From: a virus
Lineage: Duplodnaviria > Heunggongvirae > Uroviricota > Caudoviricetes
IMG/VR virus record: IMGVR_UViG_2698536387_000013
Direction: 5' to 3' (one strand)
Length of the DNA stretch: 4,102 nucleotides
The position numbers were made by a program. This document shows positions 1-3,000 of the stretch, one piece after another (within the stretch, counting starts at the first letter, position 1; every line of letters starts with the position of its first letter).

Positions 1-3000
1 ATCAAAAGCCGGTGAGCGTTATCGCCGGGCTGTGGCGCTTATTGTTCGCCAGCAGCGGCTGAAATTAAGCCTGTCCGGACGGCTGGCAATAAAAATTATT
101 GCAGAACCACCGGATAAGCGCCGCCGTGACCTGGACAACATTCTGAAAGCACCGCTGGATGCGCTGACGCATGCGGAAGTGCTCATTGATGACGAGCAGT
201 TTGATGAAATCAATATTGTGCGCGGTCAGCCTGTGCCAGGTGGACGGCTGGGCGTGAAGATTTACGAAATCAGAGGTGGTAACGATGGCGCGTGATATCC
301 AGATGGTTCTTGAGCGATGGGGGGCATGGGCAGCAAATAATCATGAAGATGTAACATGGCCCTCGATAGCTGCTGGTTTTAAAGGATTAATCCCGACTAA
401 AGTGAAATCACGTCCTAAGTGTTCTGATGATGACGCCATGATAATTTGTGGTTGTATGGCACGATTAAACAAGAATAATCAGTATTTGCACGATTTGTTG
501 GTGGATTATTACGTAGGTGGAATGACATTTATGGCTCTTGCACGTAAGCATAGATGTTCTGATGGGCTTATTGGTAAAAGGCTTTATAAAGCGGAAGGTA
601 TTATTGAAGGAATGCTTATGGCTCTGAATGTCCGGTTAGATATGGATATGCGGTAGGGATATATAGTGATGAGGGTTATGTTTTCTGTGTTTATAATTAA
701 CATGTTTATTTTTTGATGGTCATGTATTGTGGAAGGTAGATAAAATGTTGCCTGGTGAATTGAAAATATTGATAATCAATCTTCATCATTAAATAAAAGG
801 AGTGCTTATGTGGATTGTGTTAGTACTGTCACTGTCAACTCTCAGTTGGCATAAGGTAGTGGCTTTTTCATTGTTGACGGTGTCTGTTGTCCTGGCTGTG
901 CTTAATGATATTATTGATTGGTCGGTGTTATTTTTTGTTGCTACAATCGTTTTTTTTATTATTTTGAAGTTCAACTGGAAATATAACGCCTGGGCTAAAT
1001 CTATATATGAAGTTGGCATAGTTTTATCAGCCATAGCATTATTTTTCCATCTATGGCCAGGGTTTCACAATCCTGTAGTGCTAAATTCTGTTACTGTTGG
1101 CCCTCAAAGTACTCCCTATACAATGTATTTTAATTTTGATAAAGCGCTGGTGCCATTTTTGTTAGTCCTGTGTACATCTTCTTTGTTTAAAAAAGAAGTA
1201 AAATCAGAAGTGTCTTTGTGGAAGTGGGGGGCTCTGTCGCTCTCTGTTCCTCTTATCCTGTTTTTGGCTGTTTTTTTTGGTGGATTAAAGCCAGAGATTC
1301 ATTTTCCTGAGTGGTTGCCAGAGTTTATATTGGCTAATTTGTTTTTTGTGTCTCTGGCAGAGGAATCATTATTTAGAGGGTATATTCAATCACGGCTATC
1401 AGAAGTAACGTCTCCATTGGTTGCATTAATTGTGGCGGCTTTGTTGTTTGGTTTTTATCACTATTCAGGTGGTGCTTTACTTGTATTATTTGCCACGTTA
1501 TCTGGTGTTGTGTATGGATTGTCATGGATGTGGAGTGGGCGTTTGTGGGTTGCCACCCTTTTCCATTTTGGTTTGAATCTGTGTCACTTGTTATTCTTTA
1601 CCTATCCATTTTTAAAACATAATTGATTTTTTCTATGGTTTTAAATTTATAAGACTGAAAAATAGCAGGACGTGACATTTGCATGAAAAATATGCACGGC
1701 AAAGCATTTACGTACGTAAAAAATCAGGTATGCTGTTAAGAGTGGTTATTTCGCCGCATAGCTTGACCCCGCCTCTGAGCGGGTTTTTTGTGCCCGCAAA
1801 GTAGCGCAGTGCGTTAAATGTGCTGGTAGTTATTAATACAGGTCTTTCAGCTTGCTGGCTTTTTCGACAAGAGTTATTGGTGTGTCACGTTAACCGGAAA
1901 GGGTAAAAAGACATGCTGAAACAGCAGGATATGACAGAAACCGCCAGAGTTGTGTTTGATGAATTAAGCGTCACCGAACCGGCGACGGTCGGGGAGATTG
2001 CGCAGAATACGTACCTTTCACGCGAGCGCTGCCAGTTAATACTGACCCAGCTGGTTATGCGGGTCTGGCAGACTATCAGTTCGGTTGTTACAGACGCCTT
2101 CAGTCCTGAAGGCTTTTTTATTTGTGGTAAATGGGCGGCTGGTGGGTGTTAGCGGCACCTGTCAGTCCTTTGCTTATGTGTTGATGATAATTTACCTTTT
2201 GGGGCTATAATTGAACTAACCAATTGCTAATGAAAGTAAAATTATAATGGTTGTTGTCTGTTCAGTTATCATGGTTTGCTCCCCAATTAATATTTTTCTT
2301 GAAAAGGATACGTTGTCACTTAAGCCCGGCTCAGTCGTTCTGGCCACCAAATGCATCAGGGCGCTTTTCCTTATGCATTATGGCAAAGTTAAAATTTTCG
2401 ATATAAACCATTCCATAGTAAGTCAATATCTGGAAATTCAGCATAAGCTGACAAGAACTCATCTGACTGACGTTCCGCTTTATCTGTCACTGGAACCCAA
2501 CAACCCTGCGTTGGCTGAGGCTTTAATTACCAGCCAGAGATTTTCCGGAGATACCACGGATATGTTTCTTATGATGGCATGCCTGTCGCTGTTTGAATCA
2601 GATGAACGGATATTATTATTTTTAAGTGGATGTTTATCCAGTATAAGTGCCAAAGTCAGGGCGATAATTCAGACAGATATATCAGCAAGCTGGACGCTTG
2701 GTGCGATTGCGTTACGCCTGCATATGAGTGAGAGTTTGTTAAAGATAAAACTGAAAAATGAAGGGCACATGTTCAGTCGCTTGTTGCTGGAAGAGCGGAT
2801 GCGTGTTGCTGTCAATATGTTATGTTCCCGGCATGGATATGGACAGGCTGTAGCAGAAAAATGCGGTTATTCAAGCTGGTCCTACTTTATTTCTGTATTT
2901 CACCGCTATTATGGCTTCCCGCCAGACAGATATGTATCCAGGCAAGGGCTTGATTATTGATTTTCATCTGATTATTATTTTTTGACCCGGCCCTTTAGCT

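What the first reader, a model, noticed from the sequence alone, without database searches (positions are those of the whole stretch)
2247..2960. Prophage-borne AraC/XylS regulator (AppY/EnvY-like) in the late region
Cryptic-prophage AraC regulators such as AppY and EnvY in DLP12 reprogramme host genes. A regulator of this family placed between a membrane protease and rare-codon tRNAs could control the adjacent cargo or act in trans on host stress or virulence genes. Its N-terminal domain is short (about 130 aa) and not assignable to a ligand from sequence.
Basis: partly seen in the sequence, partly recalled or inferred. Interest (0 to 1): 0.6.

Follow-up and report, generated by a model that had tools for sequence, protein, structure and literature searches.

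The report
Known EHEC prophage regulator PsrA

Summary
Bases 2247-2960 (+) are one uninterrupted 237-codon ORF with an AraC-type double helix-turn-helix domain above Pfam's cut-offs. It lies in a lambdoid late region, between a CPBP/CAAX membrane protease gene and the ileZ-argN-argO tRNAs.

It is not new. The ORF is 100% identical in DNA to ECs_1087 of Sakai prophage Sp4, and 100% identical in protein to WP_000261909.1 of EDL933. Tree's group names ECs_1087 as psrA, the prophage-encoded secretion regulator A. [quoted passage not shown] PsrB also binds the hdeA and gadE promoters and raises acid resistance.

The second Sakai copy, ECs_2191 in Sp11, is 91% identical and is the PsrB-type paralogue. 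Among K-12 relatives the closest are GadW (35%), YdeO (31%) and AppY (29%), all over the full length. EnvY and GadX match only in the DNA-binding half, so "AppY/EnvY-like" is only roughly right.

Minor additions: Sakai's 195-aa annotation starts 42 codons too late. W210 in the second HTH is unique to the PsrA allele. A close homologue sits just upstream of the tRNAs and stx2k in an Stx2k phage.

Novelty: already known. Interest: low.

The parts
2247..2960 (+). psrA coding sequence (237 aa plus stop). Identical to Sakai ECs_1087 extended to the upstream ATG, and to EDL933 WP_000261909.1.
   Evidence: ORF. 100% nucleotide identity to NC_002695.2 1178677-1179390. Sakai annotation. 237/237 aa identity to the EDL933 copy. 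Named psrA in PMC13502914.
2247..2645 (+). N-terminal regulatory or dimerisation region (residues 1-133), beta-rich, of the GadW/YdeO/AppY/PatE type. No ligand is known.
   Evidence: Full-length alignments, including the N-terminal M-x-V-C-S-V-I motif, to GadW, YdeO, AppY and the Sp1 AraC protein. The AlphaFold model has 5 short strands followed by helices, with pLDDT 41-76 in this region. No PDB sequence match covers this part.
2709..2936 (+). AraC-type DNA-binding domain with two helix-turn-helix motifs (residues 155-230).
   Evidence: Pfam HTH_18 and HTH_AraC score above their gathering thresholds. PDB GadX DBD 3mkl matches at E 1.5e-18. The model superposes on 3mkl at TM 0.86-0.89, rmsd 1.5-1.6 A.
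2184..2211 (+). Sigma-70-like promoter candidate for psrA (ATGATA-16 nt-TATAAT).
   Evidence: Best consensus match in the window, 10 of 12. Both hexamers are invariant in the Sp11 and Stx2k-phage paralogous loci. This is a prediction only; no transcription start site data were available here.
2096..2123 (+). Intrinsic-terminator-like hairpin with a T-run just upstream of the psrA promoter, inside the decayed TrmB-like ORF.
   Evidence: 7-bp stem GCCTTCAG/CTGAAGGC followed by TTTTTTATTT. Its function is inferred.
1913..2152 (+). Small TrmB-like winged-helix ORF (ECs_1086), frameshifted here. It travels with psr in related phages.
   Evidence: PGAP marks it 'TrmB family transcriptional regulator, frameshifted'. 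It is 98% identical over the first 49 aa to the intact 73-aa gene of phage phiSTEC1575-Stx2k and then diverges. It matches phrog_331.
2989..3238 (+). ileZ (anticodon CAT), argN (TCG) and argO (TCT) tRNA genes immediately downstream of psrA.
   Evidence: ARAGORN, Rfam tRNA and the Sakai annotation as ileZ1/argN1/argO1.

Best explanation
The ORF is psrA, an expressed cargo ('moron') gene of the cryptic lambdoid prophage Sp4/CP-933M of E. coli O157:H7 and related attaching-effacing E. coli. It encodes a 237-aa AraC/XylS-family activator of the GadW/YdeO/AppY/PatE subgroup. PsrA acts in trans on the chromosomal GAD acid-fitness island, where it raises expression of GadE and YhiF. GadE then represses the LEE, so type III secretion falls while acid-resistance functions rise.

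Shown here: the gene's identity, its intactness, its domain composition, its prophage context and its paralogue relationships.

Taken from the literature: the regulatory outputs, namely GadE/YhiF induction, T3SS repression, a contribution to persistence in sheep, and induction after attachment.

Inferred: direct binding of PsrA to the gadE and hdeA promoters, by analogy with the 91%-identical PsrB; transcription from its own promoter at 2184-2211; and additional read-through expression from the Q-dependent late transcript on prophage induction.
For: The DNA is 100% identical to Sakai ECs_1087 in Sp4, and the protein is 100% identical to the EDL933 copy in the yccA-adjacent prophage. [quoted passage not shown] The reviews PMC10877973 and PMC8565820 report that psrA deletion increases T3S, that PsrA and PsrB induce GadE and YhiF, and that PsrB binds hdeA (-132 to -45) and the gadE promoter and increases acid survival. 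The AraC double-HTH domain scores above the Pfam cut-offs, and the model superposes on the GadX DBD. The protein is homologous over its full length to GadW (35%, E 1e-39), AppY (29%, 2e-34), YdeO (31%, 5e-32) and the Sp1 AraC protein, presumed PatE (37%, 1e-52). The second Sakai paralogue, ECs_2191, lies next to pchB and is 91% identical, which matches the published ~90% identity between PsrA and PsrB. The same gene order with a downstream Pch/PerC regulator is seen in O157 genomes. The gene is present in 726 of 5426 complete E. coli genomes, with a median of 2 copies.
Against: The primary papers (Tree 2011, Yang 2015, Bender 2012) are not in the library, so the mechanism rests on two reviews and one 2026 paper from the discovering laboratory. 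The reviews assign psrA to z1789 in OI-50. In the finished EDL933 assembly, however, the OI-50-type prophage (potC-adjacent, carrying nleL/espN/espK) has no AraC gene, and the identical gene lies in the CP-933M/Sp4-type prophage. That locus-tag discrepancy is unresolved. Direct DNA binding is reported for PsrB, not for PsrA, in the texts I could read, and PsrA differs at W210 (R in PsrB) in the predicted HTH2 recognition helix. The promoter is only a consensus match. No ligand or signal for the N-terminal domain is known, and the model there has low confidence.
Confidence: 0.92

Rival explanations
1. The ORF is the PsrB paralogue, or another Psr-family variant, rather than PsrA. Its main role would then be direct activation of hdeA/gadE and acid resistance, with little effect of its own on T3SS.
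For: PsrA and PsrB are ~90% identical and share gene context: both sit just upstream of ileZ/arg tRNAs near a pch gene. The reviews' locus tags (z1789/OI-50, z2104/OI-57) do not map cleanly onto the finished assemblies.
Against: The window ORF is 100% identical to ECs_1087, which the discovering laboratory calls psrA. It is only 91% identical to the other Sakai copy, ECs_2191.
Confidence: 0.05
2. The real product is the shorter 195-aa protein annotated in Sakai (start at ATG 2373). It would lack the first 42 residues and so have a truncated, possibly non-functional regulatory domain.
For: The original Sakai annotation ECs_1087 is 588 bp. Many database entries are 195 aa. Neither start has a strong Shine-Dalgarno sequence.
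Against: Residues 1-42 align with the N-termini of GadW, YdeO, AppY and the Sp1 AraC protein, starting at residue 1 (M-x-V-C-S-V-I). The NCBIfam YdeO model aligns residues 1-229 to model positions 1-230. The 126 nt are almost invariant between paralogues, and family members down to 40% identity keep the same start. PGAP bp.
Confidence: 0.05
3. It acts mainly in cis or on the phage, for example by controlling the neighbouring CPBP protease gene, the tRNA cluster or late-gene expression, as the first reader suggested as one option. Host GAD/LEE genes would not be its main targets.
For: It lies inside the late region between Q and the lysis genes. A palindromic pair (2206-2217 / 2235-2246) flanks its own promoter and 5' end, which could be an autoregulatory site.
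Against: No data support it. The published phenotypes are on chromosomal GAD and LEE genes. The neighbouring genes differ between psr-carrying elements: CPBP is present in Sp4 but absent upstream of ECs_2191 and in the Stx2k phage.
Confidence: 0.1

Closest known systems
[quoted passage not shown] 2011, as cited in PMC10877973 and PMC13502914)
   Same: Identical sequence, the same prophage and the same gene order.
   Different: Nothing at the sequence level. The window as a whole is at most 99.6% identical to the complete genomes in the collection, so it comes from a closely related strain.
PsrB-type paralogue (Sakai ECs_2191, Sp11, next to pchB)
   Same: 237 aa, 91% identical, with the same promoter region, the same position immediately upstream of ileZ, and association with a Pch regulator.
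   Different: 22 substitutions, including W210R in the predicted HTH2 recognition helix. Its upstream neighbours differ (no CPBP gene) and its tRNA set lacks argN. The literature reports that a psrB deletion has little effect on T3S, unlike a psrA deletion.
PatE (z0321, OI-8). The presumed Sakai orthologue is ECs_0287 in Sp1.
   Same: A prophage-borne AraC-like activator of GAD/hdeAB acid-resistance genes. It is homologous over the full length.
   Different: Only 37% identical and 247 aa. It sits at the end of a decayed prophage rather than in the Q-tRNA slot. I inferred the orthology of ECs_0287 to z0321 from its location and did not check it by locus tag.
GadW, YdeO, GadX (chromosomal AraC-family regulators of the GAD system, E. 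coli K-12)
   Same: The same regulon (gadE, hdeA). GadW (35%) and YdeO (31%) align from residue 1. The GadX DNA-binding domain is 38-45% identical and superposes at 1.5 A.
   Different: Scores are far below the NCBIfam equivalog cut-offs (YdeO 104 against 348; GadX 88.5 against 500), so it is a paralogue and not an orthologue. The GadX N-terminal half does not align.
   Same: AppY is also a prophage-borne AraC regulator, and it aligns over the full length (29%, E 2e-34).
   Different: EnvY aligns only over residues 108-233. AppY is a more distant relative than GadW. Their gene context (beside ompT at the DLP12 end) differs from the Q-tRNA slot here.
Rns / CsvR / ToxT (AraC virulence regulators with a fatty-acid pocket)
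   Same: They are the best full-length PDB fold matches (Foldseek E ~1e-8) and match the DNA-binding half by sequence.
   Different: The full-length TM-score is only ~0.4 with rmsd ~17 A, and the N-terminal model has low confidence. PsrA's N-terminal region is ~30 residues shorter. No evidence of a ligand pocket was obtained.

Membership tests
AraC/XylS family | C-terminal ~100-aa DNA-binding domain with two helix-turn-helix motifs | tested here: met
   PF12833 covers profile positions 2-78 of 80 at residues 155-230 (36.6 bits against 33.6). PF00165 scores 35.3 bits against 26.6. 3mkl (GadX DBD) matches at E 1.5e-18. Structural superposition gives TM 0.86-0.89.
AraC/XylS family | Intact reading frame (not a pseudogene) | tested here: met
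   A single 237-codon ORF, full-length colinear with 15 family members.
Psr family (PsrA) | Sequence identity with the named gene psrA (ECs1087) | tested here: met
   714/714 nt identical to the Sakai locus. The name is taken from PMC13502914.
Psr family (PsrA) | Located in a lambdoid prophage and associated with a Pch (PerC-family) regulator | tested here: met
   The window shows RusA, Q, tRNAs and the esterase. In Sakai, EDL933 and PNUSAE145745 the same module is followed by pchA/PerC ~4 kb downstream.
Psr family (PsrA) | Induces gadE/yhiF and represses LEE type III secretion | not testable with these tools
   Literature only.
YdeO (NCBIfam NF007407 equivalog) | Score at or above the curated cut-off of 348 bits | tested here: not met
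   104.1 bits, although the alignment covers the full length. 31% identity to K-12 YdeO.
GadX (NCBIfam NF007432 equivalog) | Score at or above the curated cut-off of 500 bits | tested here: not met
   88.5 bits, C-terminal half only.
AppY/EnvY orthologue | High full-length identity to K-12 AppY or EnvY | tested here: not met
   AppY is 29% identical over the full length. EnvY is 45% identical, but only over residues 108-233.
Rns/ToxT-type ligand-binding AraC regulators | N-terminal cupin-like domain forming a fatty-acid pocket against the DNA-binding domain | tested here: inconclusive
   These are the top full-length Foldseek hits, but at TM ~0.4 and rmsd ~17 A. The N-terminal pLDDT is 41-76. 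The N-terminus has no sequence match in the PDB.

The most novel reading that the evidence does not exclude
PsrA may not be functionally redundant with PsrB. Trp210, unique to the PsrA allele, sits at the start of the predicted second recognition helix. Other Psr-family members have R/K/Q/L/V there and the K-12 paralogues have T/V. This substitution could give PsrA a different DNA-site preference, which would explain why only the psrA deletion derepresses T3S. Separately, the short beta-rich N-terminal domain might sense a gut signal, such as a fatty acid as in Rns and ToxT. Because psr occupies the Q-to-tRNA slot (directly upstream of stx2k in one inducible phage), prophage induction could also deliver a burst of Psr and couple induction to acid-resistance and LEE control.
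Probability: 0.15. Interest if true: 0.4.

Novelty: already known. Interest (0 to 1): 0.15.

Why it matters
PsrA is one way that cryptic prophages rewire core regulation in EHEC. A phage-borne copy of a GAD-type activator links acid resistance to shut-down of the type III secretion system and contributes to persistence in ruminants. That has been established since 2011 and was revisited in 2026 (the HnrS-Hha-PsrA/GadE circuit), so re-finding the gene adds no new biology.

The useful by-products here are mostly for annotation. The older 195-aa gene model is truncated. PGAP still gives the gene only the generic name 'helix-turn-helix domain-containing protein'. The locus tags quoted in reviews do not fit the finished EDL933 assembly.

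Tried and rejected
1. I tried to read the primary papers (Yang 2015 PMC4288888, Bender 2012 PMC3416394, Tree 2011 by DOI). None is held.
2. I looked for the second Sakai copy in Sp10, which I expected to correspond to OI-57/CP-933O. There is no AraC gene there. It was found in Sp11 instead.
3. I looked for z1789 in the OI-50-type prophage of the finished EDL933 assembly and found no AraC gene. The old record NC_002655 is not in the collection.
4. I checked whether the multicopy prophage sRNA HnrS from the 2026 paper lies in this window. It is on Sp9, Sp10 and Sp12, not Sp4.
5. Fold assignment of the N-terminal domain: the 16-sequence alignment gave only a moderate model (mean pLDDT 72, N-terminal part 41-76), and the full-length PDB matches are poor. 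I make no claim about this domain.
6. Cluster names for the exact protein are all generic, so they gave no nomenclature help.
7. The first sandbox BLAST failed because the E. coli-genome loci were not exported. I used the built-in comparison tools instead.

Full report
OBSERVATION. The window is the late-regulatory region of a lambdoid prophage. The ORF listing finds a single 237-codon ORF at exactly 2247-2960 on the + strand. Upstream lie a RusA fragment (32-295), a Q antiterminator (276-656; PF06530, E 9e-52) and a CPBP/Rce1-like intramembrane protease (802/808-1626; PF02517, E 1.4e-19). Downstream lie three tRNAs (2989-3238) and the 5' end of a DUF1737/SASA esterase. The ORF carries the AraC double-HTH domain: PF12833 covers 77 of 80 profile positions at residues 155-230, and both PF12833 and PF00165 score above their gathering cut-offs. 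There is no frameshift or internal stop.

IDENTITY. Megablast of the 714 bp against 5,426 complete E. coli genomes finds it in 726 genomes (median two copies), and 504 of the 727 matching records are at least 99% identical. One of the 100% matches is O157:H7 Sakai at 1178677-1179390, inside 'prophage Sp4'. The Sakai annotation there is ECs_1087, 'AraC-family transcriptional regulator', flanked by ECs_1083 (RusA), ECs_1084 (Q), ECs_1085 (CAAX protease), ECs_1086, then ileZ1/argN1/argO1, ECs_1088 and pchA (ECs_1091). [quoted passage not shown] The finished EDL933 genome has the same module in its yccA-adjacent prophage, and its protein WP_000261909.1 is 237/237 identical to the window protein. 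Sakai's second copy is ECs_2191 in Sp11, just upstream of ileZ5/argO5 and near pchB. Read from the equivalent upstream ATG, it is 91% identical (215/237), which fits the published ~90% identity between PsrA and PsrB. The window therefore encodes the PsrA allele.

WHAT IT DOES (from the literature, not tested here). Two reviews summarise Tree et al. 2011 and Yang et al. 2015 (PMC10877973; PMC8565820). Deleting psrA increases type III secretion, and the gene complements in trans. psrB in trans also represses secretion. Both act indirectly, by inducing the GAD-island regulators GadE (YhiE) and YhiF. PsrA contributes to persistence in a sheep colonisation model. PsrB binds the hdeA promoter (-132 to -45) and the gadE promoter, and it increases survival at low pH and passage through the mouse stomach. 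PMC13502914 adds that psrA and gadE fall in a delta-hnrS strain and rise after an HnrS pulse, and that the PsrA/GadE arm is activated after attachment. Direct promoter binding by PsrA itself is my inference from its 91%-identical paralogue.

I compared the protein with K-12 proteins taken from NC_000913.
- GadW: 35% identity over residues 1-230, E 1e-39.
- AppY: 29%, full length, E 2e-34.
- YdeO: 31%, full length, E 5e-32.
- GadX: 38%, but only from residue 87.
- EnvY: 45%, but only over residues 108-233.

NCBIfam gives YdeO as the best model (E 9e-30, aligned 1-229 to model 1-230), then GadX. Both are far below the equivalog cut-offs. The Sp1 AraC-like protein ECs_0287, presumed to be PatE, is 37% identical over the full length. 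PsrA is thus a member of the GadW/YdeO/AppY/PatE subgroup and an orthologue of none of them. The functional analogy with the GAD regulators is closer than with AppY or EnvY.

START CODON. Sakai annotates 588 bp (195 aa, ATG 2373), whereas PGAP annotates 714 bp. The long form is supported for three reasons. Residues 1-42 align from position 1 with GadW, YdeO, AppY and ECs_0287, with a shared M-x-V-C-S-V-I start. All sixteen full-length sequences in the family alignment, down to 40% identity, share that start. The 126 nt are nearly invariant between paralogues. Neither ATG has a good Shine-Dalgarno sequence.

STRUCTURE. An AlphaFold2 model built from the 16-sequence alignment has mean pLDDT 72. 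The DNA-binding half scores 81-96, and the N-terminal beta-rich region scores 41-76. Foldseek against the PDB superposes the C-terminal half on the GadX DBD 3mkl (TM 0.86-0.89, rmsd 1.5-1.6 A, 44-45% identity). Rns, CsvR and ToxT are the best full-length hits, but only at TM ~0.4 and rmsd ~17 A. By sequence, no solved structure covers residues 1-100. I could not establish a Rns/ToxT-like pocket.

LOCAL ANATOMY. The best sigma-70 consensus match in the window (ATGATA-16-TATAAT, 2184-2211) lies 36 nt upstream of the ATG. It is conserved in the Sp11 and Stx2k-phage loci. A terminator-like hairpin with a T-run (2096-2123) lies just upstream of it. The gene has 42% GC, against 49-59% in the flanking backbone. 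This promoter-gene unit dropped into the late operon is the usual 'moron' arrangement, so expression from its own promoter in the lysogen is plausible, as is read-through from the Q-dependent late transcript. Both are inferences. In Stx2a phages the slot between the small TrmB-like ORF and ileZ-argN-argO holds a DNA methylase. In phage phiSTEC1575-Stx2k the slot holds a Psr homologue (89% aa identity), followed directly by the tRNAs and stx2k. Among 50,697 phage records, that is the only close homologue. Twenty-one other coliphage records, mostly lambdoid, carry relatives at 28-40% identity.

UNRESOLVED. The reviews place psrA at z1789 in OI-50 and psrB at z2104 in OI-57. In the finished EDL933 assembly, the potC-adjacent prophage with the OI-50 effectors nleL/espN/espK has no AraC gene, and Sakai Sp10 has none either. 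The copies lie in Sp4/CP-933M-type and Sp11-type prophages. The cause is probably chimeric prophage assembly in the original EDL933 sequence, but I could not check this because the primary papers and the old record are not available.

VERDICT. Novelty: already known. Interest: low (0.15).

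Noticed in passing
window 3315-3495 (+): Strong Rfam match to the sRNA family STnc100 (RF02076): 123.6 bits against a gathering score of 47, E 8e-28, full-length model. It lies between argO and the DUF1737/SASA esterase gene, where stx would sit in an Stx phage. A convergent minus-strand terminator lies at 3523-3503.
   Followed up: no
window 2989-3064 (+): ARAGORN calls this tRNA-Met (anticodon CAT). The Sakai and PGAP annotations call it ileZ / tRNA-Ile, that is, a tRNA-Ile2 whose CAU anticodon is lysidine-modified to read AUA.
   Followed up: partly
window 2247-2960 versus 2989-3238: psrA is rich in the rare codons that I understand the adjacent tRNAs to decode: 7 of 17 Ile codons are ATA, and 9 of 13 Arg codons are AGA/AGG/CGG. 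The numbers are small and no statistics were done.
   Followed up: partly
window 2874-2876 (codon 210): Trp210 in the motif CGYSS-W-SYF, at the start of the predicted HTH2 recognition helix, is unique to the PsrA allele. The PsrB-type and other family members have R/K/Q/L/V and the K-12 paralogues have T or V. This may be a specificity difference.
   Followed up: partly
window 2247-2372; Sakai ECs_1087: The original Sakai gene models for ECs_1087 and ECs_2191 (588 bp each) start 42 codons too late, judged by homology. Many database entries inherit the 195-aa form.
   Followed up: yes
window 1913-2152 (+): A small TrmB-like winged-helix ORF (ECs_1086, phrog_331) is frameshifted here. It is identical to the intact 73-aa gene of the Stx2k phage for 49 aa and then diverges. 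It accompanies psr in Sp4, EDL933 and the Stx2k phage, and a small ORF occupies the same position upstream of the methylase in Stx2a phages.
   Followed up: partly
L001 5479-7802 (phage phiSTEC1575-Stx2k): An inducible Stx2k-converting phage carries a Psr homologue (89% aa identity) immediately upstream of ileZ-argN-argO and stx2k A/B. It was the only close Psr homologue among 50,697 phage records.
   Followed up: partly
L011 (EDL933 NZ_CP008957 1625001-1675000) and L012: The locus tags quoted in reviews (psrA = z1789 in OI-50) do not fit the finished EDL933 assembly. The OI-50-type prophage lacks an AraC gene, and the identical gene is in the CP-933M/Sp4-type prophage.
   Followed up: partly
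window 808-1626 (+): A CPBP/Rce1-like intramembrane glutamic protease gene (38% GC, phrog_13291, 'unknown function') sits directly after Q and promoter-like sites at 717-789. It is absent from the equivalent position in Sp11 and the Stx2k phage, so it is an independent piece of cargo of unknown role.
   Followed up: no
window 2206-2217 / 2235-2246: An imperfect inverted repeat (TATAATTGAACT / AGTAAAATTATA, 83% complementary) spans from the predicted -10 box to the base before the psrA ATG. It could be an operator or 5'-UTR element, or simply a chance match in AT-rich DNA.
   Followed up: no
window 1768-1789 (+): A GC-rich hairpin followed by TTTTTT (CCCGCCTCTGAGCGGG-TTTTTT) lies ~140 nt after the CPBP gene. 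Homology to Stx2 phages begins at about 1711-1734, so this may mark a mosaic junction.
   Followed up: no
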